A DNA stretch of 64,000 nucleotides from Nemertoderma westbladi (taxonomy: Eukaryota > Animalia > Xenacoelomorpha). The translations under genes were made by a program, and so were the position numbers. The stretch covers positions 62,001-126,000 of the forward strand of contig JAUCBJ010004651.1 in NCBI GenBank assembly GCA_032718475.1, written 5' to 3'. Position 1 is the first letter of the stretch. Each line of letters begins with the position of its first letter. The notes below the pieces were generated by a model. The model was given only the letters and a program-made list of their open reading frames with translations. It had not been told where the DNA came from and did not search any database. Shown here in pieces: positions 1-49,204 of this stretch.

Positions 1-306
1 TCCTAAAGGAACTGTTAATATTTCCCGAAAGTTAATAATATCTGTCAGAAATTAATTATTAGTGATCTATCGAATAATACAATAGGTTTACACTGCAACC
101 TTACACTGCAATAATAAAATCTAAGCATCCGAATTCAGCCTCCCGGGTGTAGATCCATCGGGTGAATGATCGCGCATGGGCTGGCTTCGGCTAATGTTTT
201 GTTTATTAGCATAAAATATTGTCGTATGCTAAAGGTGTGTTAATTAACTAAAAGACATATAAATTTTGGCAGGTTAAACTGCTAAAGGTCTTCAAAAGCG
301 CGAACA
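1..306 (+). repeat. 3' part of the 5' LTR of element A
   Basis: No difference seen by eye from 10762-11067; ends in ACA. Confidence 0.93.
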
Positions 307-318
307 GTAACAGTTATA
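307..318 (+). promoter_or_regulatory. Non-canonical primer-binding site GTAACAGTTATA (second copy at 390-399)
   Basis: Directly abuts the LTR end; no TGG; exact reverse complement TATAACTGTTAC at 10315-10326 in the LTR. Confidence 0.65.
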
Positions 319-2587: not shown

Positions 2588-5500
2588 ATGTCGGACACAA
2601 CCCAATCACTGTCGGATAGTCTTTTGGAAAGTGTTAGAATGACTGTTAGACAGTGTCTTAAAAAGATCAGTGACCCAGATCCCAGTATAGAACATCCTAG
2701 ATCCAAGTCTAAGTCACCTCCTGCTGTAAGAAAGGCCATCCCTACCGTAGTAGTGTCAGACCCTAGACTAGTAGAACACCGTAGGTCTATCATCGGAACT
2801 CGGGCCCAAGTCAAGCGGGATCAAGAAGCAGCTATCAAACAGCAGCAACCTCCTAGCCCAGAACCTAGTTCTCAGCGGCCCGATGGCTCCAGTAGTTCGG
2901 ATACTGCTGAGCGGAGACCCGAACACGGAGCGAAGATGGCGGATACGGTTTATGATGAGCGACCAACCTTTGAAGAATCAACCGACGCTGCTTCTCCTCA
3001 AGTGGAAAGCGAAGTGGAAAGCGAAGTGGAAAGCGAAGTGGAAAGCGAATTAACAGCAGCAGAGAAGCCGCGAACTAGAGATGCCATTGACATCTATCTG
3101 TCAGACTATCAGCGATTCATAGGAGACGAAGAGTTGAGGAGACGACTGTCTGGACTTCGCCCTAATAGTGAAGGAACCAAGCTTGTGTTGGACGCACTCG
3201 ATGCCGAAATGTTAACTGCAAACCAAGCTGAATGTGATGAAAAACTCCGCCTCACTAGAGTCCGAGAAGAACAAGTAAAGAAAGAACTGATAGAGACAAG
3301 AAGGGTAGCAGCAGCAGAAGCAGCGGAAGCAGAAGCAGAAAGAAAGGCAAAAGCGGCGGAAGCAGAAGCCGAAAGAAAGGCAAAGGTGGCAGAAGCACAG
3401 CGGAGAGCTTCTGAGGAGACTATTCGATTAGAGTTGGAAAATCTGCAAGAGACACAAGACAGTATAAATAAACAGTTTACTGCTAATCAAATGCAGATGA
3501 TGAGAAAATCTACTCCCAGACGTCAGGGATACACATCATCGGAGGAAGGCGAGACCACCGATCCTGAAGGCGGAGGAAATAGATCTCATCTAAGTAGGCG
3601 TAGAAAAACATCTTACCGTCACAAATTGCCTGATTTGCCCCCAGCTGTTAGAAGACAACTAGCTAGCACAGACTTAGGTAGTACAGAACCCACAGAACAA
3701 ATTATTCAGGTCACAAGACTCCCTACAATAGTTGATGAGCCTGAAATAATTAGGCCTGTCGTTCCCAAAGTCACTTCTGTGTTAGAGACCCCTGTACTTC
3801 CAGAGCTTAACTCTAAATTCCCTTTACATAGTACTACACTGCCTGTACCCGGTGGAACAGTCCATGCAAATACCCCTGTCCAGATAGCAGAGAGAGAAAT
3901 CAATAATTTGTCTCCCGTCGTCCCGCGTCAGCCCGCTACTATGTTGGCGACTCCTGCTTCGGCGGTTGAGTGGGTGGAAGAGGGACGGCGGGGGATGAAT
4001 CTCCTGCTAGGACAGATGCAGGAGACTGTCCACCAACTTAAGGGAACAGTGAGGGAAGGTAGAGCAGAGTTGCAAGAAGTGCAGCAAAGTATCGCACTAG
4101 AACGCGATAAATTAGTCAATATACAAAAGGGCATACCAATACCCCCTGTAACATTGTGTCAACCTGTTAGGTCTGAAGTATTACATGCGCAAGGTGTGGA
4201 GCCTACACGCATCTATACTGCTAGTGAAGTAGAAACTCCTATAGCAAACCCTATTAAGGGTGATTATAGACCTGTTATTAATGATATTCCCTATAGACCT
4301 GATAATGATCCGAGAAATTTATATACCGATAATTCGATATTAAATAACACGATGGCCCAAGAAAGCTTTATGCGTCAGATGGCTAGAACAGAAGCCCGCC
4401 AAGCGGTCAAAGTGGGAGAGATCGTCAAATTCAATGGAGATGAGATGAAATGGTTACCTTTCAACGAATATTACAAAGATAGCATACAGAACTCTGTACT
4501 ATCTAACGGAGAGAAACTTAGATTCCTCATCAAGTGCTTGGAAGGACCTCCCAAGTTAATGGCGTTAAAGTTTATTGGACATCCAGATGGATTAAGACAA
4601 GTTTGGGATACATTAAACATCAGGTATGGTAACAAGGATAACATAGCTAAGTATTTGTATGCAAAATTAGTAGCCCCCAGACACTTCCTTAGTAGCGGGA
4701 TTATAGAGTTTTCAGATGAAATTCAAGAGATCTGTAGACAACTGGACTGGTTAGGTAAGTCGCATGAATATCAGAGTTCCATGGTTATTGGAGCCGTAGT
4801 CTCTACTTTACCAAAGGGTGGAGTATGTACACGCTGGGACAAGAAAGTGTTGTACATGAATGAACAACAACGACGAAGTCCTACCATGGCTGATCTCATG
4901 TCCTTCTTAGATAATGAAGTAAAATTACAACTCATAAAGCAGTCCAGAGAGAAAACATCGGAAAATAAGGTAAGTGAGAAACCCGTTTCTAGGAGAAGGA
5001 TAATACCAGTGTGTTATACTGACGACGGCGAAAGCCAAGCTTCTCAAGAAGAGGACAGCGGGAAAGACACCGAACGATCTTACTATGACAACAAGACCTA
5101 TAAAGACGTAAGTAAATACAAGTCTCGAACCAGTGACAGGAGAGAACAGGTAACAACAACTCCTCCTACGTCACCTAAGAGAATTCACGGAAGAAAGCCC
5201 GAAGAAAGAACGAGAGTGCAGAACGTTAACCAAGTTAAGGTGAGTAACATCAAACCAAAATGTGCGATGTGCGACGGGCCCCACCGTTTGAGTGCGTGTG
5301 CAGAATTCCTAAAGAAATCCCTGGCAGATAGACGTGGAGTCCTGTGGGATAAGCGGTTATGTTATAACTGTCTCAGACGCGGACACCAGCGGCGAACCTG
5401 TTACTCTGACGCAAGGTGTGCCAAGTGCGGCGCGAAACATCATAGCTTGTTGCACACGGAATTCGAACGAAACAGCCCGAGTCAGGTAAGTGAGCCCAAA

Positions 5501-6691
5501 TCACATGTCCAATTCAGTGATGTGAACGACACTGACCAAAGTTCTGAGTGGGAAGGATTCTATACGGACGAATTCTCCGATGCCAACGAATCCTGTTATC
5601 TAATAAATACCGCAGTGTATCGAGCACTTACGTACGAAAAAGACACCGACACGGAGTTCCCCCCAACCACCTTTGACAAACAACCATCTTGGAAAGCTCC
5701 AGCTTCCAACGTAGGAATCAGAGAATTTCCTGTAGTTCAAGTAAGAGTTCACGGTCTTAACAAAAGCTACATAGTGAACGCCCTCCTTGACTCCGGCAGC
5801 ACAGGAACATTCATCGATCAAGAACTAGCCGAAGATATCTTTGCTGGACAACCCAAGTTCCGGACTAAATTGAATATGTCAGGAATTATGCAGGTTTGGA
5901 AATCTACCCTAACGGCAGATTACTATGTAGGTGTGTTGTCCACCCCCCAGGATAAGTTAGGAACACAAGGTATAAGGTCAGTAAAAATGGTGGCTATAAA
6001 GAACTTTGCTACTACTCAAGCAGAACCTTATAACTGGGACGAGGACGAGTGCATCCAACATCTTGAGATACCTCGATTCCAAACCGATTATCCTGGAGTG
6101 CAAATACTCATCGGCCAAAACGCGCATGAGGCGCTCGAGCCATTAGAGAAACGGCCTGCTCAACCACAGCCACTACAAACCTATGCGGTAAGAACTAGAG
6201 TAGGTTGGTACTTCACTGGCCCTTCCCGTAGAACTCTCAAAGAGAGATTACCTCAACAACAGGTATACCAAGTAAAGGGGGAAGTGGAGAGCAGTGATGT
6301 GGACGACCCAACTGAGGGAACACCATACTCCTCAGATAATGACGATATTAACTCCAATGTAGATCAATGGAGACATTGCCTTGGGACGATTAATCCAGCC
6401 GACATCGCTTCCAGAGGAGCAACTCCTCAAGAACTGATAGATACTCCAGGCTGGATAGGTGGATCCGACTCCTTAAGAAAAGAAGAAGAAGAATGGCCTC
6501 CTCATCTTACCACGGCAGAAATTAGACAGGCCAAGGGAGCGGAGAAAGTAACACCACAACTCAATCGCCCAGCTAGTCGTTTATGTTCACTGGAAAGAGA
6601 CCGAAAACTGTCCGAAAACTATGGAAGGCAAAATACTCTTCCTACGACTACTTCCCTAATCCGACAAATATCTAGGGACTCCATAACGTGA
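2588..6691 (+). CDS. gag: Bel/Pao Gag-protease polyprotein fused in frame to the C-terminal end of the Pao RNase H region; RT and integrase missing
   Basis: KFNGDEMKWLPF..KLRFLIKCLEGPP (DUF1759-like Gag); three Cys/His knuckles (CAMCDGPH..C, CYNCLRRGH..C, CAKCGAKHHSLLH); aspartic protease LLDSGSTGTF; QWRHCLGTINPADIASRG..W (Pao RNase H end); no YVDD. Confidence 0.9.
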   Translation: MSDTTQSLSDSLLESVRMTVRQCLKKISDPDPSIEHPRSKSKSPPAVRKAIPTVVVSDPRLVEHRRSIIGTRAQVKRDQEAAIKQQQPPSPEPSSQRPDGSSSSDTAERRPEHGAKMADTVYDERPTFEESTDAASPQVESEVESEVESEVESELTAAEKPRTRDAIDIYLSDYQRFIGDEELRRRLSGLRPNSEGTKLVLDALDAEMLTANQAECDEKLRLTRVREEQVKKELIETRRVAAAEAAEAEAERKAKAAEAEAERKAKVAEAQRRASEETIRLELENLQETQDSINKQFTANQMQMMRKSTPRRQGYTSSEEGETTDPEGGGNRSHLSRRRKTSYRHKLPDLPPAVRRQLASTDLGSTEPTEQIIQVTRLPTIVDEPEIIRPVVPKVTSVLETPVLPELNSKFPLHSTTLPVPGGTVHANTPVQIAEREINNLSPVVPRQPATMLATPASAVEWVEEGRRGMNLLLGQMQETVHQLKGTVREGRAELQEVQQSIALERDKLVNIQKGIPIPPVTLCQPVRSEVLHAQGVEPTRIYTASEVETPIANPIKGDYRPVINDIPYRPDNDPRNLYTDNSILNNTMAQESFMRQMARTEARQAVKVGEIVKFNGDEMKWLPFNEYYKDSIQNSVLSNGEKLRFLIKCLEGPPKLMALKFIGHPDGLRQVWDTLNIRYGNKDNIAKYLYAKLVAPRHFLSSGIIEFSDEIQEICRQLDWLGKSHEYQSSMVIGAVVSTLPKGGVCTRWDKKVLYMNEQQRRSPTMADLMSFLDNEVKLQLIKQSREKTSENKVSEKPVSRRRIIPVCYTDDGESQASQEEDSGKDTERSYYDNKTYKDVSKYKSRTSDRREQVTTTPPTSPKRIHGRKPEERTRVQNVNQVKVSNIKPKCAMCDGPHRLSACAEFLKKSLADRRGVLWDKRLCYNCLRRGHQRRTCYSDARCAKCGAKHHSLLHTEFERNSPSQVSEPKSHVQFSDVNDTDQSSEWEGFYTDEFSDANESCYLINTAVYRALTYEKDTDTEFPPTTFDKQPSWKAPASNVGIREFPVVQVRVHGLNKSYIVNALLDSGSTGTFIDQELAEDIFAGQPKFRTKLNMSGIMQVWKSTLTADYYVGVLSTPQDKLGTQGIRSVKMVAIKNFATTQAEPYNWDEDECIQHLEIPRFQTDYPGVQILIGQNAHEALEPLEKRPAQPQPLQTYAVRTRVGWYFTGPSRRTLKERLPQQQVYQVKGEVESSDVDDPTEGTPYSSDNDDINSNVDQWRHCLGTINPADIASRGATPQELIDTPGWIGGSDSLRKEEEEWPPHLTTAEIRQAKGAEKVTPQLNRPASRLCSLERDRKLSENYGRQNTLPTTTSLIRQISRDSIT

Positions 6692-7207: not shown

Positions 7208-7780
7208 TAAATCTGTTAAACTTTTGACCATCTGTAATTCTAGTCAATTAAGATATCGTGGCACCCACCGATATACTTGAAAGACAAATTCTAGAATCAG
7301 TGGTTAACGTCCCCAGACAAGTTCTGGAATAAATCGGTGCCCATCCTAAATATTAATTTAATATTTATTAAAATCTGTAAAATTCAGATCCGTTAACGAT
7401 TCTAGTCGATTAAGATATCGTAGCACTTACCGATACTCTTAAAAGACAAATTTTATAGAATTAAGGATCCTAAGTCCCCAGATATGCTCTGGAATAAAAT
7501 TTGTGTCAATTTAACATCAAATAATAAAATTCACGGGAATAAATTTAAATTCATATTCAAATGAATTTCATAAATTGTCATTTTGTGCAATTTATAACAT
7601 TCCCAAAATTCCAGTAATTAATAGATCATGGGAGCGGAGATTCATATTGAGTGTATTAGAGTGTGAGAATCTCCAACATATAGTCAATAGCCGATAAAAT
7701 TTATAAAATCATGCATAAAGAGGATATTGACAATTAAAGAATTACTATTAAATAACATCCCAGATCTGTATGCATGAGAA
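7208..7780 (+). ncRNA. Three tandem predicted structured RNA modules between pol remnant and accessory ORF
   Basis: Copies at ~7208-7345 and ~7370-7510 with covarying stems; third divergent module ~7613-7777; shared TAGTC..GACAA(A)TT and (T)CCCAGA motifs. Confidence 0.5.
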
Positions 7781-8309
7781 TTACCCTAATTCTACCGCTA
7801 GTTTTCCATAATGTCACCATGGCAACACCCACGCTAGAATTAGAAGCAAGTTAAAGGAACAATAAAGGCTTGCCCCATTGCGTAGCATAAGAGAATACAT
7901 AGCGCACTATTAGTATCCAAGGATACATAGTAATAACGTGACATTCTGGAAGACAATGACTAACGGACAAAATGGCTTGCATGTGTGCAGTAAGTAATGA
8001 TTGTATGGAATTTGTGCGTTTATAGGTGAATGATACTACTAAAGTGTGTTTACAGTAGCTAATCGCAATTGTAAAGTAGCCTAACTCTACCGAGATAACC
8101 TCAAGTGGATTCAAGCCTTTGGGACGGACAGTGGTGGGACTTGTGTCGATTATCGTTGTCGTGCTGTTGCTACATGTTGGCGCAAACACCGCGACAACGG
8201 TACATCGGCGCTGAGAAACCCACTGTCCGGGGTCAAAGACTAGTAGGCAGCGACGCCCGCTTGCCTAAATATTGACTCATACTAATATTAATAAACTCAG
8301 ATAGCAGAT

Positions 8310-9759
8310 ATGACGGAATTAATAGAAGATGACCTTGGTATTAGAGAGCGATATACTCTACCTTTACAAGCGTTTGTGGATAGCTTGATACGCGGTGAAG
8401 CCGATCCGACTATTACGGAGGACGATGGTCATTATATCGAACCGCCGATGTCCCAAGAGCAACTTACGCGTGAATTGGACTATCGAAAATTAACCGCTCG
8501 CTATACGCATCGTAATGGTACGTATATGGACTTCTTAACTACCGGCCATCCTATCGATTTACATGATACGGACAATGTAGACACCCTAAAGGGAAATGGT
8601 TCTATTTAAATATCATACCCAGCGGAGTCGTAACGATAAACCGAGAATAGATCACGAAAATTCTATTCGTAACAGACTGGGAAGACGAACCAATATGCCT
8701 AGAATCTGAGGAGATTCAGCCTATCGCGCTCGGAACAGCGACTACGATTACAGCCTAGAATGGTATCAAAGTCCACAGTGTCTCACTGCGTACGATTATC
8801 GCCATGCCAACTATGTTTCTCGGCAACGTTGTCGGTTATGCGCATCGAGAGACCATGTTACGCCCATGGACACAAACGTCCGCTGTTCCTATTTCCACGA
8901 ACAACCGGCGATGGAAATTTATTGCGCGTATTGCAGATTTAATAATTTGCACATTTTTGCGGTTTGCCCTCAATTTATGACTCAATGTCACCATTGTCAA
9001 CTAAAGGGACATGCCAGTTTCGATTGCCCTTTTAATCACGATTTGGAAAGCGTAGATGAAATGATCACACTACGTTACATCAGAGCTTGGGAAGCGAACA
9101 CTGATTTATATTGTGATTCGCGCCATCGCTATTATCCCGGACGCGCTTACGAAGGAGTTTATGCATTACATCCTTATCTATTCGCTTCGGTTGAACAGAA
9201 ATCACGCATATCAAGTTACGAGCTACTGAAGCGCGTCGGAGAATGTATTTCAACCAAATTCGTACGCAAATTTCTCAGGAGTGTTAATCCTAGCGACCTT
9301 CATCCCTATAACTTAATCAATCATATCCGTCAGGATCCGGACTATGGAGACTTATTCGTCAACTCACACCCTGAGTTACAGGAAGTATATCGACGGCCTT
9401 ACGAGTACCGAGCCCGCGAACGCGAGTTGGAAAGAACCATTAAACCAAGGAAGTTTCTAACTGCCTATGGTCCACCCACGGCCCTCGTGCAGACCACTCG
9501 TACAGGACCCGTAAGAGCGGCTGTCTTGAAACGAGCTCTCAAAGCCGTTAGACCCCTCTCCCCGGACGTTGATGTCAATCAACCCGGTACTTCGACCGGC
9601 GGATATACCGATCGCAATCCCATACCTTCTGATGCAATCATATTGCACCCTTCACCCAGGAGTTATAGCCCTCCTCGTAAAGTGGCTCGCCCCAAAGAGA
9701 AAAGGACTCTTGCTAGCTTTAAAAAACTGCGTAAACGCCGTCCGCGCAAGAAAGACTAA
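8310..9759 (+). pseudogene. Deleted, frameshifted copy of the accessory ORF (paralogue of 11733-15986); keeps the N-terminus and C-terminal zinc-knuckle/NLS part
   Basis: MTELIEDDLGIRERY start and FKKLRKRRPRKKD end identical to the 1417-aa ORF; +1 frameshift near 8586; ~2.8-kb deletion near 8690. Confidence 0.9.
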
Positions 9760-9837
9760 CTGTTTAGAGTATTTACGTATATTAGAAACTGTGATTTTTG
9801 TATATTTATAGACTCAAATCCCATTTTCTGGGAGCGG

Positions 9838-11067
9838 TGTAAAAGCTTCTGTGGGATATAACTGGCCCCTTTTGCTTCGCAATCCAGTTTCCCCCCAGGC
9901 GCTGGAATACTCTAAAAAGGTTCTCTAACTGTATATATATTCCCCTCGCCCGCAAGGTACCGTTACAGGTGTTTTAACGGACATAAAAGTCATTCTGCTA
10001 TATACGTGTTTTAGCGGACATGGTAAGGCAAAAAACCTGCAATGCACCAAATACCTTTCACAGCTTAGCCGTGATGATTCATATTACGACATCTAACAGC
10101 TGGTTGCTGACATGGAAACAGCCATTGGATGCATGGTTCTTTGTTTGGCTTGAGCCAATCAGAGCGTTTTTTCCTGTCGACGTGTAGCTTTTCGGCCGAT
10201 CATAAGGAGAGTGTTCAGTCTTACTGTTTTTACTTGATACTTTGTTGTTATTGCTGTCTAAGCCAGAAACACCGGCTCTAAGAACTCTAGTAAAACTGCT
10301 TAGATTATAGAAAGTATAACTGTTACCGGCAGTGTTACCTCACTTAATTTAATTGCACTAATCATATTGTTTGTACTGCTATTTACCGTCAGTTATTAAT
10401 TGTATCTATTTGTTGATGGAAATATTGCTCTTTGGAGAATACGGATAAATCACCCCAAATTCCCAATTTTCTTGATACACTACAGGTTAGAGAGGCGGGC
10501 TATATATAACAATTGCGATTTATATCAATGTGGTGTGTATTGAATCTAATGTTATTTAGTAGACACTACCTGAGTCAATTGCTGTTCTCTTTATGTGTGA
10601 TCAAATATACTGACGGTCGGCAGAATAGTGTGCATGATTGTGAGTGTGATGTGACTGGTAACAAAGCATTTCCTAAAGAATGCGACTTATACTTTAATCA
10701 TAAGCCTTATCGTTGCGTTTAGTATAAGTCCTAGCTCTGTTTAAATAGATAGAGCGCCACGTCCTAAAGGAACTGTTAATATTTCCCGAAAGTTAATAAT
10801 ATCTGTCAGAAATTAATTATTAGTGATCTATCGAATAATACAATAGGTTTACACTGCAACCTTACACTGCAATAATAAAATCTAAGCATCCGAATTCAGC
10901 CTCCCGGGTGTAGATCCATCGGGTGAATGATCGCGCATGGGCTGGCTTCGGCTAATGTTTTGTTTATTAGCATAAAATATTGTCGTATGCTAAAGGTGTG
11001 TTAATTAACTAAAAGACATATAAATTTTGGCAGGTTAAACTGCTAAAGGTCTTCAAAAGCGCGAACA
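9838..11067 (+). repeat. 3' LTR of element A (1230 bp, TGT...ACA)
   Basis: Preceded by PPT-like TGGGAGCGG; CCAAT box AGCCAATCAG ~10154; end matches 1-306. Confidence 0.9.
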
Positions 11068-11155
11068 GGCCCTACCAGTAAATTTAGAAATAGTTTGTAA
11101 ATATTTTATATTTCGATTGGTGAAAACAGCCTTACTTACTGTTTTCATGGAGCGG

Positions 11156-11527
11156 TGATGAATTATTTCACTATAAGATAGCATTTGTAGTTTAACTTTA
11201 ACGTAAAAACTTTCGAAAATCCGACGTATTTTGATTAAGTTACAGTAATGTAATATGCCTATTCATATTTGTACACATAAAACCCTTAGGTACTCTCGTG
11301 GCGTAGTGGTCAGATGGTTAAGGCGTTGGTTACATTACATAGGTTACGAGTTCGAATCCCAGTCGGGAAATTTGTATTTTGGGGCCATTTATTTTCGTGT
11401 GGTGCTAATTGGTAGGCCAATGAGAAGCGTACAGCGTAGCGAATGATGAGCCAGGCCAATCATAGGGCATAAATTATCTTATTGCTCAAATGTGAGGCAG
11501 TGGAAAATTCTGTTAGGATTCCATGCT
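11156..11527 (+). mobile_element. Truncated LTR of a further Bel/Pao family ('D') with tRNA-like Pol III boxes
   Basis: PPT-like GGAGCGG then TGATGAATTATTTC, similar to the start of the element C LTR; A/B-box-like sequence at ~11300-11365 followed by CCAAT boxes. Confidence 0.5.
11299..11370 (+). ncRNA. tRNA-like sequence (degenerate A box, B box GAGTTCGAATCCC), not a functional tRNA
   Basis: TGGTCAGATGG and GTTCGAATCC at tRNA-like spacing; no convincing acceptor or anticodon stems. Confidence 0.55.
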
Positions 11528-11732
11528 AAGCCTTTGGGACGGACAGTGGAGTGACTTGTGCCGGTTATCGTTGTCGTTGTACAGCTACGTCGTTGGCGAA
11601 AGTACAGCTACAGCGGTACATCGGCGCTGAGAATCTCCTACTGTCCGGGGGCAAGGGAGAAATAGGCAGCGACGCCCGCTCGCCTAACGATATATAAACT
11701 CATTATAATATTGGTGAACTTGTATAGCAGAT

Positions 11733-14700
11733 ATGACTGAATTAATAGAAGATGATCTTGGTATCAGGGAGAGATATACTCTACCTTTACAAGCGTTTGT
11801 CGATAGCTTGATACGCGGCGACGCTGATCCAACTACTACGGAGGACGATGGTCGTTATATCGAACCGCCAATGTCCCAGGAGCAACTTACGCGTGAATTG
11901 GATTATAGAAAGTTCACTGCTCGCTACACGCATCGTAATGGTACGTATATGGACTTCTTGACCACTGGTCATCCTATTGATTTACACGATACGGACGATG
12001 TAGACACCGAAAGGGAAATGGTTTTATTTAAATATCATGCCCAGCGGAGTCGAAACGATAAATTGAGAATAGAACACGAGAACTCTATTCGAAACAAACT
12101 CGAAAGAGAAGACGTTGAAGAACCTGATAAACGTAACGGTTTCAACGATTATCTAGAATTCTTACGAGAGACCTATCTCAATGTTGCCAGTCAACAAAAC
12201 CTCGAAACTCGATATCCCCAAGGTATACATCCAGATCCTATAATGGAACTCAAACGGCTCTATTTTACGATGATGTATCTTACCGCCGATCGACCGCTAC
12301 CTGTCGTTCCAGATAGCTTCGAACAGATGGAGGAATATTGTAAAACTGGAGAGCGATCACCCGCGTTTCCCCTTCAAGACGTGCGTCTTTGGTATTACTG
12401 TGACGAATGCCCTAGACCTAACCAGCAAATCGAAAGGCATAAACATCCTCGGAGACGTTGCGCTAAACACAGTTTTACGCGATATACTTATGGGAGTTTC
12501 GAGCGTAACCTTTTCGACGTATCACCTACGGTCGCGCGCCTTAAGCGATCATTGAATAAACCCATGATCAGAGTTCCGGAATACTCGGTCAGACCTCCCC
12601 ATTCACAAGTGATACCTCAAACTCTAGATCCTAATAGTATTACGGATCCTCCCGAACTGTACTCACTGTTCAAAGATCTAGTGTTACCTGAACAGTTGAT
12701 TGGTGGCACTCCGGTAGTGGGTTCGTTGGATATTCGCCAACCTTACCTCGCTGGACTAGGACGCGGTCATCTAATATCACCGTTTAACCCCTACAACCGT
12801 CCTGGCCTTCCTCCGATCCAACCTGTTACAGAAGTCGAAGAGAGCGTGATACGAAATGCATTGGACGCTATTCGGCAGAAAATCGGAAAAGGAACTTACG
12901 ATTGCTTGGAGAAACGTAAATTGCAACAACAAGTCCAAGCGGTGAAAGAACTAGCTTTACCCCAGTTCGATAGAGAAATACAAAATCTAGAGGAGGACAT
13001 CGAACGTGGACGAACCTACTCTTTACAGGAATTCCTGGACGAGCGCTTGCAACAACAAGCGGAGGAAAATCAACTCGAGGAGAGACATATAGAGCTGACT
13101 GAGAGGGAAGAAGCAGCTTTAGCCCAACCAGAAGCTCAAATTCTAGTGACGGATCTCTATTCCAAAACGATCCTCCACCCCTCGATGGTTCCTCAGTTTA
13201 AAGACAAGCTCTTTGCTACGGTACAGCCTCAACCGGTTAATACTGATCTCAGCTCTCACGAGCTCGTTGCTGATGCTCCCATGCTACAACGTCCACCCAT
13301 CGAGGCCGCTCGTGTAGATGGTTTACTTGTTGAGCCTCCGGACAATAGAGCGGATCTTGTCCGTCGCATGGTGCACGATGTTAACATACGCGCTAGACCT
13401 TTGCCGGACTCATTTTATGGAATTAAGGATCATCCTTATTACGTCAATTTAAAGCAATATTACATGGTGAAACCAGAAGATCCTACGCATAGTCTGAAGT
13501 TTCTACCATTGATCAATCCTCTCGACCTTGTCGAACTCGAACAACTACAAAAACACCTAGATCAGCTAGTTAAACTAAACTCATTTAGAAAACCGTATAA
13601 TATTTCTAGAATAGAGAAAGAAATATCACCTCCGTACAATCTTGATGGATTTATTAAAACTCGATTGGTGCACTGGAATCTTGACGTGTTATTCGAGGAA
13701 GAAAGAATAAAACGATATGGAGATGTGGAAACCTATACTACACAATGCTTAAAGTATGGAGATTTACCCAATGCTAACGAGTGTGCTACTTTGTGGCATC
13801 CAGTGGGAATGACTCTCGAAAACGCCACTAAAGAATGGAACGAGACTCTTAACGTTATCGAGATGTATGGCGTTGTTACTTACGACAACGAAGGTAGCGT
13901 TCCGGTGGGAGAACTAGGAACTACGCGAATGATACATATACGAGGACTCGCTGGTTCTACCCACGTATTCACTCGAGCGTGTTCTGACGTGATTGATTAT
14001 TCTTTTGAAACTCTTACGGAGATACAAAAGAAACTTCGACATGGACAATTCGAACTCGCGCAGCGTTACGTCACCGACACCGAACGCAAACCGGCCATGG
14101 GTATCGATGGATCAATATTACCCCAACCTGTACTCGCAATGTTGTTTAACGAAAGAATTCTAAAAATCGGCTCAGCTGTTTATGGAGATCTCCAAAACGA
14201 CTTCCGGAATATGGAGAACATTCCATACCCTTTCGTTGATACTCAGCTGATTGCTCCTTGGGCCGAAGGCCGAGGTTTCTTTCGCACTATGTATGCCAAT
14301 ACACCCAGCGGCATTACTAAAGTACAACGGACATCCATCGGACATCTTGCCTTTCAAGAATATGGTTGGAATTTCAAAGTTGGAAATCCTATAAATTACC
14401 AGCAAGTATATGGGGATCATTACTCTCGTTTATATTTTGATGGACCGTTAACTGCGCCTGGTGCCGTATATAGCTTTATGAGTGTTCCCCTTCGCCCTTC
14501 CTTAGCTATATACACGATCTTTGAAAACGCAGCACTTGCCGGTTGGCTAGCCGATGTGTGCAGTCGTACCATACGCGCTCACCCGTTAATACTTGGAACT
14601 AAACTCGCCAAGTTAGACGAACACAATAAGTTCATACGTTTCGAATGTTTCCGGTGCTTTCCGACTCCGTTCCGTAACGTCGATAGTCAGTTCAAGGACC

Positions 14701-15986
14701 GCGCGCTGACCAAGCTCAGTCTTAGAGACTCAGCTGCGGAGAAACTGAGTAGCGCTGGATTTGCCGTCTTTCAAGACGTTTCTATACAGAACCTACATTC
14801 ATCCGTTATACAAAGACCCCGAATATCTACAGGTTATTCTGTCGTGGAAATACAGACAGTGGGTCCACTTACGGAAACCGACGCACCCACTTCGTCTATG
14901 CAGCTGGAGGATGAACCAGTATGCTTGGAATCAGAAGCGATTCAACCTACGGCTTCCCGGAGCAGTGACAATGATTATGTCATAGAGTGGTATCAAGGTC
15001 CACAGCGTCTCACAGCGTACGATTATCGACACGCCAACTACGTTTCCCGAAAACGTTGTCGATTATGCGCATCGAGAGACCACTTCACTCCTCTAGACTC
15101 GAGCGTACCTTGTTCCTATTTCCTCGAACAACCGATGATGGAAATATATTGTGCTTATTGCCGGCTTAATAACTCTCATATATTTGCCGTCTGCCCACAA
15201 TTTATGACTCAATGTCACTACTGCCAACTTAAAGGACACGAAAGTTACAATTGTCCCTTTAATCGCGATTTAGAGAGCGTAGACGAGATGATCACCCTGC
15301 GATACATCCGAGCTTGGGAAGCGAACGCAGATTTACATTGCGAATCCAGACATCGCTATTACCCTGGACGAGCTTACGAGGGAGTTTACGCGTTCCATCC
15401 TTACCTATTCGCGTCGATTGAACAGAAAACACGCGTACCAAGTTACGAGTTAATAAAGCGTGTTGGTGAGTGTATTTCCACCAAGTTTGTCAGAAAATAC
15501 CTTAGAAATATCAACCCTAATGATATAACCACATATCACCTGATCAATTTTATCCGTCAGGACCCTGAGTATGGCGACATTTTCGTGAACTCGCATCCTG
15601 AACTCCAGGAAGTATCTCGGCGCCCATACGAATATCGAACCCGAGAACGCGAGCTGGAGAGAACCATTAAACCGAGAAAGTTCCTCACCACTCACGGTCC
15701 ACCCACCGCTAGTGTCCAGACGACCCGTCAAGGACCCGTAGGAGCTGCTGTCCTGAGACGCGCTCTAAAGGCCGTTAGATCTCGCTCCACTGAGGTTGAT
15801 ATTAATCAACCAGGTACTTCGACCGGCGGGTATACCGATCGTAACCCTGCACCTTCTGATGCAATTATATTGCACCCTTCGCCTAGGAGCTACAGCCCTC
15901 CTCGTAAAGTGGCTCGCCCCAAAGAGAAAATGACTCTTGCTAGCTTTAAAAAACTGCGTAAACGCCGTCCGCGCAAGAAAGACTAA
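11733..15986 (+). CDS. Accessory retrotransposon protein (1417 aa): WRN/EXD-like DEDDy 3'-5' exonuclease domain, CCHC zinc knuckles, C-terminal basic NLS
   Basis: ExoI GVVTYDNEG (D718,E720); ExoII LPQPVLAMLFNERILKIGSAVYGD (D819); FVDTQLIA; SIGHLA..YG..K; ExoIII-like PLRPSLAIYTIFE (Y927,E931); CHYCQLKGHESYNC and CAYCRLNNSHIFAVC; KKLRKRRPRKK. Confidence 0.78.
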   Translation: MTELIEDDLGIRERYTLPLQAFVDSLIRGDADPTTTEDDGRYIEPPMSQEQLTRELDYRKFTARYTHRNGTYMDFLTTGHPIDLHDTDDVDTEREMVLFKYHAQRSRNDKLRIEHENSIRNKLEREDVEEPDKRNGFNDYLEFLRETYLNVASQQNLETRYPQGIHPDPIMELKRLYFTMMYLTADRPLPVVPDSFEQMEEYCKTGERSPAFPLQDVRLWYYCDECPRPNQQIERHKHPRRRCAKHSFTRYTYGSFERNLFDVSPTVARLKRSLNKPMIRVPEYSVRPPHSQVIPQTLDPNSITDPPELYSLFKDLVLPEQLIGGTPVVGSLDIRQPYLAGLGRGHLISPFNPYNRPGLPPIQPVTEVEESVIRNALDAIRQKIGKGTYDCLEKRKLQQQVQAVKELALPQFDREIQNLEEDIERGRTYSLQEFLDERLQQQAEENQLEERHIELTEREEAALAQPEAQILVTDLYSKTILHPSMVPQFKDKLFATVQPQPVNTDLSSHELVADAPMLQRPPIEAARVDGLLVEPPDNRADLVRRMVHDVNIRARPLPDSFYGIKDHPYYVNLKQYYMVKPEDPTHSLKFLPLINPLDLVELEQLQKHLDQLVKLNSFRKPYNISRIEKEISPPYNLDGFIKTRLVHWNLDVLFEEERIKRYGDVETYTTQCLKYGDLPNANECATLWHPVGMTLENATKEWNETLNVIEMYGVVTYDNEGSVPVGELGTTRMIHIRGLAGSTHVFTRACSDVIDYSFETLTEIQKKLRHGQFELAQRYVTDTERKPAMGIDGSILPQPVLAMLFNERILKIGSAVYGDLQNDFRNMENIPYPFVDTQLIAPWAEGRGFFRTMYANTPSGITKVQRTSIGHLAFQEYGWNFKVGNPINYQQVYGDHYSRLYFDGPLTAPGAVYSFMSVPLRPSLAIYTIFENAALAGWLADVCSRTIRAHPLILGTKLAKLDEHNKFIRFECFRCFPTPFRNVDSQFKDRALTKLSLRDSAAEKLSSAGFAVFQDVSIQNLHSSVIQRPRISTGYSVVEIQTVGPLTETDAPTSSMQLEDEPVCLESEAIQPTASRSSDNDYVIEWYQGPQRLTAYDYRHANYVSRKRCRLCASRDHFTPLDSSVPCSYFLEQPMMEIYCAYCRLNNSHIFAVCPQFMTQCHYCQLKGHESYNCPFNRDLESVDEMITLRYIRAWEANADLHCESRHRYYPGRAYEGVYAFHPYLFASIEQKTRVPSYELIKRVGECISTKFVRKYLRNINPNDITTYHLINFIRQDPEYGDIFVNSHPELQEVSRRPYEYRTRERELERTIKPRKFLTTHGPPTASVQTTRQGPVGAAVLRRALKAVRSRSTEVDINQPGTSTGGYTDRNPAPSDAIILHPSPRSYSPPRKVARPKEKMTLASFKKLRKRRPRKKD

Positions 15987-16064
15987 CTGTTTAGAGTATT
16001 TTTGTATATTAGAAATTGTGATTTTGTATATTTTATAGACTTAAATCCCATTTTCTGGGAGCGG

Positions 16065-17277
16065 TGTAAAAGCTTTTGTGGGATAACTGATTCGTTTGCC
16101 TTGTTGGCCAGTTCCCCCCCGGTCGCTAGAATAGTGCAAGCTTTAATAGCACGCTTAAAATAGTGCAAGCTACCAGCTTATTGGCTGATTTGCTGTACGC
16201 AGGTATCTGGGCTCTGTTTAATCGGCCAACTAGCCTAGGAAGGTTGCGTCATAGCCTTGTTTTTGTATCTCCCAATAGAATTTGAGTTAGCCTTGATTTT
16301 GACCTATCACAGAGCTACTGAACTGAAAATTTCCTATCTCACTGCTCTTTCTCTGTGTTGAACGGGAGCTTCGTGGAATAAGGGTAGTTGGTATCCTCGT
16401 ATAGAGAGTAGTCACGAGTTTTTCAAAGCCACGAAAGAACGGCTTTTTAGTGTTTTGTGCTTTCTGCTTTTTAGCTCAACACTAGTAGGTTTAATTATAA
16501 GGACATATATCCTTTAACTGCAATTTCGTAATCACTGCAAACTGCTGACGCACACGGCTTTTAATCTTGAATATCTCACTGCTAAAAATTACCTGCTCAA
16601 TCAATACGGTATACTGCTATTTGTTGTCGGTTATTCATTATATTTGTTGATGAATTATTATATTGGAATAACGAGAAATAACCCCGAAAACCCAATATTC
16701 TTGATATACCGAAGGTAAGAGAGAAAGGTTACCTATAACGATTGTGACTTATGTTAAAGTGGTTTGAAGTGAATCTAATGTTATTTGATAGACCCTACAT
16801 GAGTCAGTCTGTGTTCCTTTTATATGTGACTAAAATCAGTGAAGATTGGCAGATTAGTGTGCAGTATTGTGCAGCATTGTGTATGAGTGAGTCTGTTAAA
16901 GAAGCAATTCCTAAAGAATGCGCCATATATGTGAATTATAATTAAGCCATATCGTTGTGAGTAGTTTAAGTCATAACTCTGTTTATATAAATAAAGCGCC
17001 ACGTCCTAAAGGAACTGTTAATATTCCCTAAGGTGAATAATATTGTCAGAGATTATATAATACTGTCAGTCGAATAATACATTAGGCTTACATAGCAATA
17101 AAATTAAACCGTCGAACCCAATCTCCCGGGAATATCCAGCGGGTGAATGATCGCGCACAGATTGGTTTCGACTAGTGTAGTGAATCAAATTCTTGTCATA
17201 GGCTAAAAAGCGATTTAATATCTAGAAGACATCTTAATTTGGCGGATTAAACTGCCAAAGGTCTGAAAGCGCGAACA
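16065..17277 (+). repeat. 3' LTR of element B (1213 bp, TGT...ACA)
   Basis: PPT TGGGAGCGG|TGTAAAAGC; ends AAAGCGCGAACA; 3' half homologous to LTR A. Confidence 0.88.
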
Positions 17278-17482
17278 GTGGGCGTATTAAAAAGTATCAG
17301 ATAAGGCATATAAACTACTACATAACTTGTTGAAATCGGAGTAGGAGATAAAGGTTTATTAAGTTATTTTTATCACACTGACAACATTGAAACCTTCCTT
17401 ACATACCGTGTAGTGCGTTACATACCACTAATAAACAGAAACTAACCAACATAACTTAATTCAAACCATTTTATTGTATCAG

Positions 17483-18678
17483 GGCGAACGTCGAGTATCA
17501 GCCACGAAGTGCTCGGGTTCGATACCGAGGGAAACCCATTGGATTTCTCCAACGGGCGAACTGTAGAGGAAATCTGTGAAACCGCCTCCAAACTCATCAC
17601 ACTCATAGACCTCGCCGGCCACCACAAATACCTAAAGACCACGATATTCGGGCTCACAGGCCACTGTCCCGACTTCGCTATGCTTGTCGTCGGCGCCAAC
17701 ATGGGTCTGGTCGGCATGGCTCGCGAGCACCTGGGCATCGCGCTCGCCCTCCAGGTCCCCATATTCGTGGTCGTCTCCAAGATCGATCTGTGCCCTGCGC
17801 GGGTCACGGACGCCACTTTGCGGCAGGTCGAGTCCCTGCTGAAGAGCCCCGGGTGCAACCGGGTCCCGCACCGGGTCGTCGACGCCGGTGACGTCACCGT
17901 CGCGGCGCAACGTTTCCCGGAGGGCGCCGTGACCCCGGTGTTCGCGATCTCGTCCGTGTCCGGGGAGAACCTCGGGTTGCTGAAGCGGTTCCTCAACCTG
18001 TTGGCGCCGGGCCGCAGTCGGGTGGAGTTGGAGAGGCTGAGTCAGGAGGAGACGGAGTTCCGTGTGGAGGAGACGTTCGAGGTGGGGGCCGTGGGTGGCG
18101 CTCTGTGTGGTGAGGGGGGCGCGGGGGGCACTCAGTGCGGCTCGGGGGGCACTCAGTGCGTGGTTGGGGGAGCCTTACAACGCGGCGTCGTCCGCGAAGG
18201 CGACGAACTGGCTGCGGGGCCGCGAGTCGACGGCTCTTTCTTCCGGGTCCGAGTGGTCTCGGCGCGCCGCAACCGGACCCCGTGCCGCGTGGTCCGCGCC
18301 GGCCAGTGCGCCACGCTGGCGCTGGAGGGCGCTACACCCTCGGCCTACCGCAAGGGGATGGTGTTGCTGAGCGGGTTGCTTGGGGTTCACGCCTGCGACA
18401 CGTTCGAGGCCGACGTCTACGTTCTTTTCCACGGGAGCGCCATCTGTCGCGGCTTCCAGGCCACCGTCCACGTAGGTAATGTGTGCCAGACCGCCGCGAT
18501 AGTTCGTCTCAGCACCACTAAGGGGCTGCGGACTAACGAGACCGCCACCGTGACCTTTCGCTTTCTGCGTCACCCAGAATTTATTAACGTCGGCGCTAAA
18601 CTCCTCATGCGAGAACGATCTACTAAGGGGATTGGACACGTTACTAAAACCTTCCCAATGGGCGACGACCCAACGTGA
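17483..18678 (+). CDS. GTPBP2: GTP-binding protein 2 (translational GTPase, EF-Tu/eEF1A-like), terminal exon; upstream exons outside the window
   Basis: Acceptor TTTTATTGTATCAG|; GRTSSISHEVLGF..EEICETASKLITLIDLAGHHKYLKTTIFGLT; REHLGIALAL; SKID (G4); beta-barrel domains to TKGIG; TGA at 18676. Confidence 0.9.
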
Positions 18679-19193
18679 CGTGACGTCACGCAGTCTAGTA
18701 GTCCTAGCAACGTTGGAAGTCGTATTAACTTATTAGTTTTGGTTTGATTTTATTAGGTGTAGTGAGTTATACTATTACAATAATATTATTCCCTTACACT
18801 TTGCTTTTTATTAATTAATTATTAGTTCACTTTTTATTAATTAATTATTAGTTCACTTTTATTAATTAATTATTGGTTTAATTTTAATTTTTAGTGTCAT
18901 AATTAATTAGCTAGAACAATAATTATTAGTTCCATTGATTTAATCGTACTCATTTATGTCATTCTCGGTTGCGAGATTTATACATTTTGCAATATTAGTG
19001 GTTAATATTTTAGTATAGTTGCAACCTATATCGCCCCGATGCTTTTAATAATCTCATTCTCATACATTGCAGTCACAATAATAATTTATACTTTGTTTAT
19101 AATATCTAACCTTTAGCATTAGGTTTTTCTCACTTATCTGCTTACAAAATAAAATATTTCAAATGTTGAACAAAAGAACGCACTGATGGCATA

Positions 19194-20676
19194 ATTAATC
19201 AGGTACACATGCAGCTATCATAGTTAATCAGGTACACATGTAGCTATCATAGTTAATCAGGTACACATGTAGCTATCATAGTTAATCAGGTACACATGCA
19301 GCTATCATAGTTAATCAGGTACACATGTAGCTATCATAGTTAATCAGGTACACATGTAGCTATCATAGTTAATCAGGTACACATGCAGCTATCATAGTTA
19401 ATCAGGTACACATGCAGCTATCATAGTTAATCAGGTACACCTGTAGCTATCATAGTTAATCAGGTACACATGCAGCTATAATAGTTAATCAGGTACACAT
19501 GCAGCTATCATAGTTAATCAGATACACATGCAGCTATCATAGTTAATCAGGTACACATGTAGCTATAATAGTTAATCAGGTACACATGCAGCTATAATAG
19601 TTAATCAGGTACACATGCAGCTATAATAGTTAATCAGGTACACATGCAGCTATCATAGTTAATCAGGTACACATGCAGCTATCATAGTTAATCAGATACA
19701 CATGCAGCTATCATAGTTAATCAGGTACACATGCAGCTATAATAGTTAATCAGGTACACATGTAGCTATAATAGTTAATCAGGTACACCTGCAGCTATAA
19801 TAGTTAATCAGGTACACATGCAGCTATCATAGTTAATCAGGTACACATGCAGCTATCATAGTTAATCAGATACACATGCAGCTATCATAGTTAATCAGGT
19901 ACACATGTAGCTATCATAGTTAATCAGGTACACATGCAGCTATAATAGTTAATCAGGTACACATGCAGCTATCATAGTTAATCAGGTACACATGCAGCTA
20001 TCATAGTTAATCAGATACACATGCAGCTATCATAGTTAATCAGGTACACATGTAGCTATAATAGTTAATCAGGTACACATGCAGCTATAATAGTTAATCA
20101 GGTACACATGCAGCTATAATAGTTAATCAGGTACACATGCAGCTATAATAGTTAATCAGGTACACATGCAGCTATCATAGTTAATCAGGTACACCTGTAG
20201 CTATCATAGTTAATCAGGTACACATGCAGCTATCATAGTTAATCAGGTACACATGCAGCTATCATAGTTAATCAGGTACACATGCAGCTATCATAGTTAA
20301 TCAGGTACACCTGTAGCTATCATAGTTAATCAGGTACACATGCAGCTATCATAGTTAATCAGGCAGATGCAGCTATCATAGTTAATCAGGTACACATGCA
20401 GCTATCATAGTTAATCAGGTACACATGTAGCTATCATAGTTAATCAGGTACACATGCAGCTATCATAGTTAATCAGGTACACATGCAGCTATCATAGTTA
20501 ATCAGGTACACATGTAGCTATCATAGTTAATCAGGTACACCTGTAGCTATCATAGTTAATCAGGTACACATGCAGCTATCATAGTTAATCAGGTACACAT
20601 GCAGCTATCATAGTTAATCAGGTACACCTGTAGCTATCATAGTTAATCAGGTACACATGCAGCTATCATAGTTAAT
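19194..20676. repeat. 29-bp tandem minisatellite (AGTTAATCAGGTACACATGCAGCTATCAT), ~51 copies
   Basis: Direct reading; few recurring variants. Confidence 0.97.
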
Positions 20677-21221
20677 GGGTCCAAGTAGAGAAATTAGTAC
20701 ATTTTGAGAATACGAGTTTGTTTACATTTCTGTTCATTATTTTAATGTTGTTTCAACGTTTTCTTTATTAATTTTTATTTATTAATATTCAATATGGAGC
20801 TATTTAATATTTATACTCATGGCTTTACGAATTTTGTCTCTGATCTGGTTTATTTAGGATTTATATTTAGGTTCAATTTATTGTTTGTTGGTTAATATTG
20901 AGGCTACGGTTTTGTATATTTTGGAATAATTTTGGTTTTAGTGCTGATGTTCTATGTGAAGCAAATGGTGCCATAATGTTTTTATAGTATTATTATTTTA
21001 TATAAATTGTAATTAACTTTGTCAATAAAGTCTAAATGAAGCTGCGAGAAACTGATATTTATGTTTGTTCATCGCATAACCAGTGTAACTATTAATATTG
21101 GAAGCGGAAGGTGTCCGAGGCGGAGAGTGGCCAACTGCTGCTCTAAGGGGACTATTACCCCCAACCGACCGACCAACTGACCTGCACAAAAGTTTCCATA
21201 TTTCTCGTACAAACGGTTTTT

Positions 21222-43102: not shown

Positions 43103-43144
43103 TATGATATCGTACTGTATAGTATATACGTACATATTTTTCAG

Positions 43145-49177: not shown

Positions 49178-49204
49178 AGATGAGATTTATGACAAATTAA
49201 GCCA

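What the first reader, a model, noticed from the sequence alone, without database searches (positions are those of the whole stretch)
11733..15986. Large non-Env accessory ORF with a WRN/EXD-like DEDDy exonuclease and zinc knuckles
The ORF occupies the env position but shows no signal peptide or transmembrane helix. Motifs read by eye match DnaQ-like exonucleases of the WRN/EXD2/Mut-7/Egalitarian group: D718-x-E720, LP..L..L....ILK.G.....D819, and PL.....Y927-x3-E931, where Glu replaces the usual last Asp. There are three C-terminal CCHC-type knuckles, an N-terminal CDEC..H..C motif, a coiled coil and a basic NLS; about 700 N-terminal residues are unrecognised. Possible roles: primer trimming, RNA 3' processing, or interference with small-RNA defence, since EXD1 and Mut-7 relatives act in those pathways.
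Basis: partly seen in the sequence, partly recalled or inferred. Interest (0 to 1): 0.85.

Follow-up and report, generated by a model that had tools for sequence, protein, structure and literature searches.

The report
Bel/Pao retrotransposon exonuclease accessory gene
A high-copy jumping gene of the Bel/Pao group carries, where retroviruses carry their envelope gene, a large, selection-maintained gene whose protein contains a predicted RNA-trimming enzyme joined to zinc fingers that likely grip RNA, probably to help the element evade the host's RNA-based defences, although no activity has been tested.

Summary
The 1417-codon ORF (11733-15986) is real. It is the third ORF (ORF3) of a high-copy Bel/Pao LTR retrotransposon family. 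This intact copy belongs to a 5'-truncated sister element (B). The neighbouring young non-autonomous element (A) carries a deleted copy in the env slot. Shared parts of the two copies give dN/dS 0.105.

Residues ~686-945 are a DnaQ/DEDDy 3'-5' exonuclease domain: an ordered-motif test was matched by 0 of 200 shuffles, profile-profile probability was 93-96%, and the ESM Atlas returned PF01612. D718, E720, D819 and Y927 fall on ExoI-III, and Glu931 replaces the last Asp. A distant relative (P0001) has the same Y-x3-E and the same downstream triple zinc-knuckle module, so this looks like a family trait, not decay.

No 3D confirmation was obtained (pLDDT ~31), and the WRN versus RNase D subgroup is unresolved. 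The N-terminal ~680 residues stay unidentified. The element lacks a tRNA primer site and shows a self-priming signature, so tRNA-primer trimming is unlikely.

DEDDy ORF3s are already described in bdelloid Juno/Vesta elements. This is a new variant: Bel/Pao host, 1.4k residues, knuckle module, DEDE site. Best guess: a nuclear RNA exonuclease acting against host silencing (~0.4).

The parts
11733..15986 (+). Intact ORF3 of element B, 1417 aa
   Evidence: dN/dS 0.105 (95% bootstrap 0.075-0.148) against the remnant in element A over 463 codons
11725..11730 (+). Candidate splice acceptor two bases before the ATG, also present before copy A's ATG; suggests an env-like spliced subgenomic mRNA (inferred)
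   Evidence: sequence
12399..12470 (+). Cys/His motif, residues 223-246, possible metal site (untested)
   Evidence: sequence; no Pfam hit for residues 1-400, no usable Atlas hit
12855..13127 (+). E/Q-rich, proline-poor stretch, residues ~375-465, likely coiled coil (by eye and composition)
13788..14567 (+). DnaQ/DEDDy 3'-5' exonuclease domain, residues ~686-945; ExoI D718/E720 (codons 13884, 13890), ExoII D819 (14187), ExoIII Y927/E931 (14511, 14523); ~35-residue insert between ExoI and ExoII relative to the references
15057..15482 (+). Triple zinc-knuckle module (C1109-C1174) plus a conserved helical tail to ~1250, shared with P0001 and present twice in P0002
15948..15980 (+). Basic C-terminal tail, predicted nuclear localisation signal
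   Evidence: sequence
11528..11732 (+). Leader of ORF3; similarity to element A starts abruptly here (5' breakpoint of element B)
   Evidence: blastn 8113-8685 vs 11528-12107, 86%
16057..16064 (+). Polypurine tract of element B
16065..17277 (+). 3' LTR of element B (1213 bp, TGT...ACA), ~73% identical to A's LTR in its 3' half
1..306 (+). End of element A's 5' LTR, 100% identical to its 3' LTR over the 307 bp held, so a young insertion
307..318 (+). Non-tRNA primer-binding site of element A; exact reverse complement of LTR positions 10315-10326
   Evidence: 0 of 2000 LTR shuffles reach 12 nt; 3 of 9494 internal positions do
2588..6691 (+). Element A gag-protease ORF (DUF1759, three-knuckle NC, aspartyl protease); RT, RNase H and integrase absent, so non-autonomous
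   Evidence: DUF1759 E 8e-12; no RT, Peptidase_A17 or rve hit
8310..9759 (+). Broken ORF3 copy of element A in the env slot: frameshifted near its start, ~2.8 kb deleted including the whole exonuclease domain
9838..11067 (+). 3' LTR of element A (1230 bp), preceded by a PPT at 9830-9837
11068..11527 (+). Spacer between A and B with pol III A-box and B-box motifs (tRNA-SINE-like; no tRNA called)

Best explanation
This is the accessory third gene of a Bel/Pao LTR retrotransposon family, and it encodes a protein with a DnaQ/DEDDy 3'-5' exonuclease domain and a triple zinc-knuckle module that likely enters the nucleus, is predicted to bind single-stranded RNA through the knuckles and trim it from the 3' end, and probably serves the element in trans by degrading or diverting the RNAs that drive host silencing of it.

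Shown: the ORF, its place in the family, purifying selection on the parts shared with copy A, homology to DEDDy exonucleases, and the motif residues.

Inferred: expression from a spliced subgenomic RNA, nuclear import, two-metal catalysis with Glu931 as fourth ligand, an RNA substrate (by analogy with TbRND), and the counter-silencing target.
For: Element gene, not a host gene: it lies before a PPT and LTR; a second copy sits in the same slot of element A; reads show many diverged copies, e.g. one ORF3 contig at depth 457 against 14 for the single-copy host flank in run X1.

Kept by selection: dN/dS 0.105 over 463 codons. All 12 indels listed, of 88 found, lie outside the three ORFs (table 4).

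DEDDy fold by sequence: (1) an ordered five-block PSSM from 13 bacterial RNase D/PolA-type domains scores 57.3 against a shuffle mean of 27.6 +/- 4.4, with 0 of 200 shuffles as high, and it places ExoI on D718/E720 and ExoII on D819; (2) hhalign with query alignments made without reference rows gives 93.4% and 94.2% (E ~1e-7), and the single sequence scores 29.4 against a maximum of 23.6 in 100 shuffles, with signal only in tiles covering the domain; (3) ESM Atlas 0.93 to PF01612 clusters; (4) RNase D TIGR01388 at E 0.005.

Catalytic set conserved: P0001 (30% identity, E 3e-7) has D62, E64, D130, Y229 and E233 in the same register, followed by the same knuckle module.

Analogy: TbRND joins a DEDD exonuclease to CCHC fingers that bind the RNA upstream of the active site (PMC7797062, passages).
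Against: There is no direct evidence on substrate or target.

The fourth acidic ligand is Glu, not Asp. My PSSM preferred an alternative ExoIII register (Y913-x3-S917, no acid), as did hhalign. Only the pairwise match to P0001 favours Y927/E931.

P0002 keeps the knuckle module twice, but its N-terminal domain fails the exonuclease tests (score 30.0, hhalign 0.6%), so catalysis may be dispensable in the wider family.

Selection was measured only on the N- and C-terminal parts, because copy A lacks the exonuclease domain. An hmmsearch with the same references matched only the ExoII region, and 1 of 500 shuffles scored as high. Pfam and PDB sequence searches of the ORF found no exonuclease. Both AlphaFold models were unusable. 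piRNA processing is largely cytoplasmic (own knowledge), which sits awkwardly with a basic NLS-like tail.
Confidence: 0.42

Rival explanations
1. Pseudo-nuclease: the DEDE site is weak or dead, and the protein works by binding RNA (exonuclease pocket plus knuckles) as a decoy, chaperone or adaptor, as EXD1, Maelstrom and Egalitarian do.
For: Asp-to-Glu at ExoIII; an alternative ExoIII register without an acid; P0002 retains and doubles the knuckles while its N-terminal domain has degenerated. PMC5408684 notes that Maelstrom and EXD1 are inactive DEDD derivatives. That Egalitarian is inactive is recalled, not from a call.
Against: All four acidic positions and the Tyr are kept in two proteins only 30% identical. 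A dead site would be expected to drift.
Confidence: 0.25
2. Processing of the element's own RNA: the enzyme trims a 3' overhang back to the 12-nt duplex between the LTR segment and the PBS to make the self-primer, or trims the RNA 3' end.
For: Element A has no tRNA-type PBS; nt 307-318 pair exactly with LTR nt 10315-10326. The solo LTR has a one-base-longer LTR motif, and a matching one-base insertion behind 313 occurs in about a fifth of the depth in runs X1-X3 (linkage on one molecule not shown). Single-strand-specific 3'-5' exonucleases stop at duplexes (own knowledge).
Against: A second, distant Bel/Pao element in the window shows the same kind of signature (11 nt), so self-priming looks like a lineage trait; whether that element ever had an ORF3 is unknown. 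Tf1 self-primes by cleavage without an ORF3 (PMC4600332 passages; that RNase H makes the cut is recalled). An NLS-bearing 160-kDa protein is an unlikely particle component.
Confidence: 0.18
3. DNA-directed role: a WRN-like exonuclease that trims or proofreads cDNA ends or integration intermediates in the nucleus.
For: Atlas neighbours are PF01612 eukaryotic 3'-5' exonucleases; a basic NLS-like tail; DEDDy enzymes can act on ssDNA (PMC5408684).
Against: CCHC knuckles next to a DEDD domain bind RNA in TbRND. Bel/Pao elements are described with gag, pol and at most env (PMC8742986), so such a step is not generally needed.
Confidence: 0.1
4. Not an exonuclease, or a host gene or domesticated copy rather than element cargo.
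For: No Pfam or PDB hit at a standard threshold; no usable fold; the intact copy is cut off from gag-pol by an LTR and a spacer.
Against: Shuffle-controlled motif and profile tests; the same slot in element A; its own PPT and LTR; high copy depth.
Confidence: 0.05

Closest known systems
DEDDy-type ORF3 of bdelloid rotifer LTR retrotransposons Juno and Vesta, and of Athena/Terminon elements (Rodriguez et al. 2017, PMC5408684; passages and sections 13 and 14 read)
   Same: Non-env ORF3 after pol with an RNase D-like DEDDy domain, an altered acidic motif, no TM domain and untested activity. The same roles were proposed there (3'-end processing, silencing).
   Different: Here the host is a Bel/Pao family. 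The protein is 1417 aa with a predicted coiled coil, a triple knuckle module and a basic tail; that paper says its DEDDy ORFs lack coiled-coil domains. The motif is DEDE here and DEED there. Selection between subfamilies is strongly purifying here.
Trypanosoma brucei RNase D (TbRND; PDB 7C42/7C45; PMC7797062, passages)
   Same: DEDD 3'-5' exonuclease followed by an array of CCHC fingers in place of an HRDC domain.
   Different: TbRND is a cellular guide-RNA trimmer with four fingers on a ~30-residue linker and a canonical D80/E82/D145/D230 site. Here there are three knuckles ~160 residues downstream and a long unknown N-terminus. No direct sequence hit to it was found, so this is an analogy only.
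WRN exonuclease / EXD2 / Mut-7 / RNase D / Rrp6 (PF01612 group; EXD2 site D108, E110, D171, Y242, D246 in PMC6648332, passages)
   Same: Order and spacing of ExoI D-x-E, ExoII D followed by a DTQ motif, and ExoIII P-L-x6-Y-x3-acid.
   Different: The last acid is Glu; there are inserts of ~35 residues after ExoI and longer loops before ExoIII; the scores are below every curated cut-off; the subgroup is unresolved.
Belpaoviridae / Bel/Pao elements (ICTV profile PMC8742986, whole text; PMC3118150, passages)
   Same: DUF1759 Gag, three-knuckle NC, protease, PPT, TGT...ACA LTRs of about 1.2 kb, and a third gene slot.
   Different: The third gene is an exonuclease fusion, not env-like, and there is no tRNA PBS. 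Neither text mentions an exonuclease.

Membership tests
DnaQ-like DEDDy 3'-5' exonuclease | ExoI D-x-E at the end of the first core strand | tested here: met
   D718/E720 are placed on ExoI by the PSSM and the multiple alignment; D62/E64 in P0001
DnaQ-like DEDDy 3'-5' exonuclease | ExoII Asp | tested here: met
   D819 aligns to the RNase D ExoII Asp, followed by DTQ
DnaQ-like DEDDy 3'-5' exonuclease | ExoIII Y-x3-D | tested here: not met
   Y927-x3-E931 (P0001 Y229-x3-E233); alternative register Y913-x3-S917. A DEDE variant, not canonical DEDDy
DnaQ-like DEDDy 3'-5' exonuclease | Profile-level homology to the fold | tested here: met
   hhalign 93-94% non-circular; 0 of 200 shuffles; Atlas 0.93
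DnaQ-like DEDDy 3'-5' exonuclease | RNase H-like 3D fold with clustered acidic residues | tested here: inconclusive
   Single-sequence AlphaFold pLDDT 30.7 and 33.2; Foldseek found nothing at E<=0.001
DnaQ-like DEDDy 3'-5' exonuclease | Two-metal 3'-5' exonuclease activity | not testable with these tools
   needs an assay
WRN/EXD2/Mut-7/Egalitarian subgroup | Closer to WRN-type than to RNase D/Rrp6 domains | tested here: inconclusive
   The Atlas gives eukaryotic PF01612 clusters. The only named weak hits are RNase D. No WRN-type sequences were on hand for a tree
Bel/Pao LTR retrotransposon | Pao-type Gag (DUF1759, three-knuckle NC) and aspartyl protease | tested here: met
   Element A. Element B is assigned by 81-86% DNA identity to A's 3' part
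Bel/Pao LTR retrotransposon | RT, RNase H and integrase in gypsy order | tested here: not met
   Absent from copy A; B's pol is not in the window; no genome held
Bel/Pao LTR retrotransposon | LTRs with TG...CA ends and a PPT | tested here: met
Bel/Pao LTR retrotransposon | tRNA-complementary PBS (ICTV profile) | tested here: not met
   No TGG-type site after the 5' LTR; a 12-nt self-complement instead, which meets the >=10 bp criterion used in PMC6317226
Env-like ORF3 | Signal peptide and transmembrane anchor | tested here: not met
   Maximum hydropathy window 1.19; acidic N-terminus, basic C-terminus
Bdelloid Juno/Vesta DEDDy ORF3 clade | Sequence grouping with those ORFs | not tested
   Sequences not available through the tools; supplements of PMC5408684 were not opened

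The most novel reading that the evidence does not exclude
A lineage of tRNA-independent Bel/Pao elements carries a dedicated, catalytically active DEDE-type exoribonuclease with a zinc-knuckle RNA clamp. It belongs to an undescribed protein family spread over unrelated genomes (P0001, P0002), and it either destroys host silencing RNAs or matures the element's self-primer. That would make it a retrotransposon-encoded enzyme with a defined counter-defence or priming role.
Probability: 0.25. Interest if true: 0.85.

Novelty: new variant of a known kind. Interest (0 to 1): 0.58.

Why it matters
How animal retrotransposons counter piRNA and nuclear RNA surveillance is largely open, and the role of exonuclease ORF3s, first noted in rotifers, has not been tested in the papers I read. 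This copy gives an intact, strongly conserved protein from a very abundant family, with named catalytic residues and a separable RNA-binding module, so the question can be assayed directly. It extends exonuclease cargo to Bel/Pao elements and defines an exonuclease-plus-knuckle architecture with an unusual Glu in ExoIII.

Tried and rejected
Databases without a hit: Pfam, PHROGs and PDB sequence searches of the ORF gave no significant exonuclease hit. Three word-indexed homologue searches found nothing new. The viral and metagenome contig scans with the ORF and tblastn against phages and plasmids were empty or chance. The full HMMER scan (residues ~490-1296 only) gave 2 proteins at E<=0.001; residues 1-489 were not searched there.

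Structure: both AlphaFold jobs were single-sequence and failed, so the Foldseek results say nothing either way.

N-terminus: residues 1-400 gave no usable Atlas hit. Weak Rad4/BHD_1 hits at E 0.11 and tyrosinase hits for the knuckle tail were rejected as chance.

Expression: no listed holder run is on record as RNA, which is no evidence either way.

Not available: no host genome is held, so full-length elements, target-site duplications and B's 5' part could not be examined. No variant table focused on the exonuclease domain was obtained, so selection on that domain is unmeasured.

Corrected or dropped: the first dN/dS for codons 1-91 was out of frame and was corrected. The hhalign used a query aligned together with the references and is partly circular; one search is the clean test. 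78 of the 80 near-identical RNase D loci were left out of the reference alignment, and the 2 kept were dropped from the PSSM.

Literature: ten searches found no Bel/Pao exonuclease ORF3. Subscription papers and Repbase are not covered. I have an unverified recollection that nematode Cer elements were once described with an extra exonuclease domain; the paper I tried was not held.

Readings rejected: env function, tRNA-primer trimming, and derivation of the knuckles from the element's own Gag (no blastp hit at E<=1).


Full report
1. The observation. The window holds a stop-free frame at 11733-15986 (+), 1417 aa. There is no hydrophobic window above 1.19 and no signal-peptide-like N-terminus. 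There are three Cys/His knuckles at 1109-1174, a Cys/His motif at 223-246, an E/Q-rich stretch at ~375-465 and a basic tail.

2. Context. Self-comparison shows two related elements. Element A runs from a 5' LTR (ending at 306), through a gag-protease ORF (2588-6691; DUF1759 E 8e-12; no RT, RNase H or integrase hit) and a broken ORF3 (8310-9759, frameshifted and lacking ~2.8 kb including the exonuclease domain), to a PPT and a 1230-bp 3' LTR (9838-11067). Its two LTRs are identical over the 307 bp held, so it is a young non-autonomous copy.

After a 460-bp spacer with pol III A and B boxes (no tRNA or Rfam hit), element B starts abruptly at 11528. It consists of a leader, the intact ORF3, a PPT and a 1213-bp LTR (16065-17277). 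B is 81-86% identical to A in the leader and ORF3 parts and ~73% in the 3' half of the LTR. Either B is 5'-truncated or A inserted into it; no genome is held to decide. A host GTP-binding-protein exon begins at a splice acceptor near 17482. So ORF3 sits in the env slot of a Bel/Pao family, though this copy is not contiguous with A's gag.

Public runs show a very abundant, diverse family. Single contigs reach depth 457 in ORF3 against 14 on the host flank (run X1), and 9251 in gag-PR against 26 (run X3) (depth is not a copy number).

3. Selection. Over the 463 codons shared by A's remnant and B, dS is 0.74, dN 0.078 and dN/dS 0.105 (bootstrap 0.075-0.148); for codons 1-91 it is 0.05 and for 1076-1417 it is 0.11. 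The 12 best-supported indels shown, of 88, all lie outside the three ORFs. Non-coding AT runs are indel-prone, so this is supportive only. The exonuclease domain itself could not be measured. Of three ORF3 positions where this copy differs from nearly all reads, two change the amino acid and none touches a catalytic codon.

4. The exonuclease domain. Standard libraries miss it, but several sensitive tests agree. The ESM Atlas puts residues 640-990 at 0.93 with PF01612 clusters; 25 of the 30 hits share that set, and the top hit is an unnamed cluster. NCBIfam gives RNase D at E 0.005 over ExoII.

With 13 bacterial RNase D/PolA-type domains as references, an ordered five-block score is 57.3 for the ORF against 27.6 +/- 4.4 for shuffles (0 of 200 as high) and 62.5 for P0001; true members score 110-154. 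hhalign with query alignments built without the references gives 93.4% and 94.2%. The single ORF domain scores 29.4 against at most 23.6 in 100 shuffles, and of 13 tiles across the ORF only the three overlapping the domain score above 20. A plain hmmsearch is weaker: only ExoII matches, and 1 of 500 shuffles ties it.

ExoIII has two candidate registers. The reference-based methods chose Y913-x3-S917. The pairwise alignment to P0001 puts Y927/E931 on Y229/E233, in a P-L-x6-Y-x3-acid pattern that matches the references. I take the second, which makes Glu for Asp a shared family trait. Both structure predictions failed, so clustering in 3D is untested, and WRN-type versus RNase D-type is unresolved.

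5. Relatives. A full HMMER scan with residues ~490-1296 found 2 proteins at E<=0.001 among 1.84 billion. P0001 (648 aa) has the exonuclease with D-E-D-Y-E, a linker and the same knuckle module. P0002 (633 aa) has the module twice and an N-terminal domain that resembles P0001 by eye but fails the tests. Eleven of the twelve knuckle ligands share columns across all four modules, followed by a conserved aromatic/Arg tail; the module is not similar to the element's own Gag knuckles. P0002's contig (L001) shows a purine tract, then ~550 bp, a TGG-type PBS-like site and a new acidic ORF, which suggests but does not prove an LTR-element 3' ORF. P0001's context could not be fetched.

6. Priming. Element A has no tRNA-type PBS. 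Its first 12 nt after the LTR are the exact reverse complement of LTR nt 10315-10326 (0 of 2000 shuffles; 3 of 9494 internal positions). The solo LTR at 45010 has a one-base-longer motif, and reads show the matching one-base insertion behind 313. A second, distant Bel/Pao element on the minus strand shows an 11-nt match about 1 kb upstream of its LTR end, unique on that strand of the window. This meets the criterion used for self-priming in PMC6317226, argues against tRNA-primer trimming, and looks lineage-wide rather than tied to ORF3.

7. Mechanism. Shown: an element-borne, conserved ORF3 with a DEDDy-homologous domain and a knuckle module. Inferred: translation from a spliced RNA (acceptor-like site before both ATGs), nuclear import, RNA binding by the knuckles as in TbRND (PMC7797062), and 3'-5' trimming. 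I put counter-silencing by an active RNase at 0.42, a binding-only pseudo-nuclease at 0.25, self-primer or own-RNA processing at 0.18, a DNA-end role at 0.10, and not an exonuclease or not element cargo at 0.05.

8. What is known. DEDDy ORF3s in the env slot are published for bdelloid Juno and Vesta elements, with a DEED motif and untested activity (PMC5408684: passages and sections 13-14; reviewed in PMC5718144 and PMC6431247, passages). The ICTV profile (whole text) lists only gag, pol and env for Belpaoviridae. PMC3118150 and PMC2774666 have no occurrence of 'exonuclease' in their main text. PMC3985635, PMC6648332, PMC4600332 and PMC3601003 were seen as passages. Ten searches found no Bel/Pao exonuclease ORF3, but coverage excludes most subscription papers and Repbase, no supplements were opened, and an old report for nematode Cer elements cannot be excluded (recalled). 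Unchecked notes of this scan report Rrp6-like or dead DEDD cargo in Gypsy elements and self-priming in other Bel/Pao elements; they are leads, not support.

9. Verdict. Real, ordinary in kind and new in form: a new variant of exonuclease-carrying LTR retrotransposons. Interest 0.58.

Noticed in passing
window 307-318 and 10315-10326; solo LTR ~45316-45328: Self-priming signature of element A (12-nt LTR/PBS complement, no tRNA PBS), with a matching one-base length variant in the solo LTR and in reads.
   Followed up: partly
window 48402-57000 (- strand): Second, distant Bel/Pao element: frameshifted gag-pol (Peptidase_A17 E 9e-36) cut off after RNase H, LTRs 97% identical over 776 bp, and an 11-nt complement of its PBS at 56987-56997.
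   Followed up: partly
window 2588-6691: Element A keeps one open 1367-aa frame although RT, RNase H and integrase are gone, with short remnants of the intervening pol regions in frame (recognised by eye); it may encode a functional Gag-protease.
   Followed up: partly
window 45010-46075: LTR of the A family, 89% identical, lacking the first ~180 bp and with no matching target-site duplication; a perfect hairpin follows its 3' end.
   Followed up: partly
window 11068, 17278, 46076: All three LTR 3' ends that face flanking DNA are followed by G, and two of the three read G-N-N-N-C; possible target-site preference.
   Followed up: no
window 17482-18678: Large terminal exon of a translational GTPase gene (GTP_EFTU E 6e-16; resembles GTPBP2, name recalled); the elements probably lie in its intron.
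   Followed up: partly
window 11290-11370: tRNA-SINE-like sequence with A and B boxes between elements A and B; not called by ARAGORN or Rfam.
   Followed up: partly
window 694-1261, 301-432, 7237-7498: Internal direct repeats in element A's long leader (288-bp tandem pair; 48-bp repeat of the LTR/PBS junction) and in the pol-ORF3 spacer.
   Followed up: no
window 42216-43105: About 890-bp palindromic (foldback) sequence, 83% self-complementary.
   Followed up: no
window ~19050-20800, 28800-33000, 59600-62600: Long minisatellite arrays (29-bp unit; 47/49/60-bp units; a further array whose unit was not determined) that create spurious ORFs.
   Followed up: no
L001:124-3685: P0002 (doubled knuckle module, degenerate exonuclease-like N-terminus) is followed by a purine tract, a PBS-like site and the start of an acidic ORF; possibly tandem LTR elements.
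   Followed up: partly
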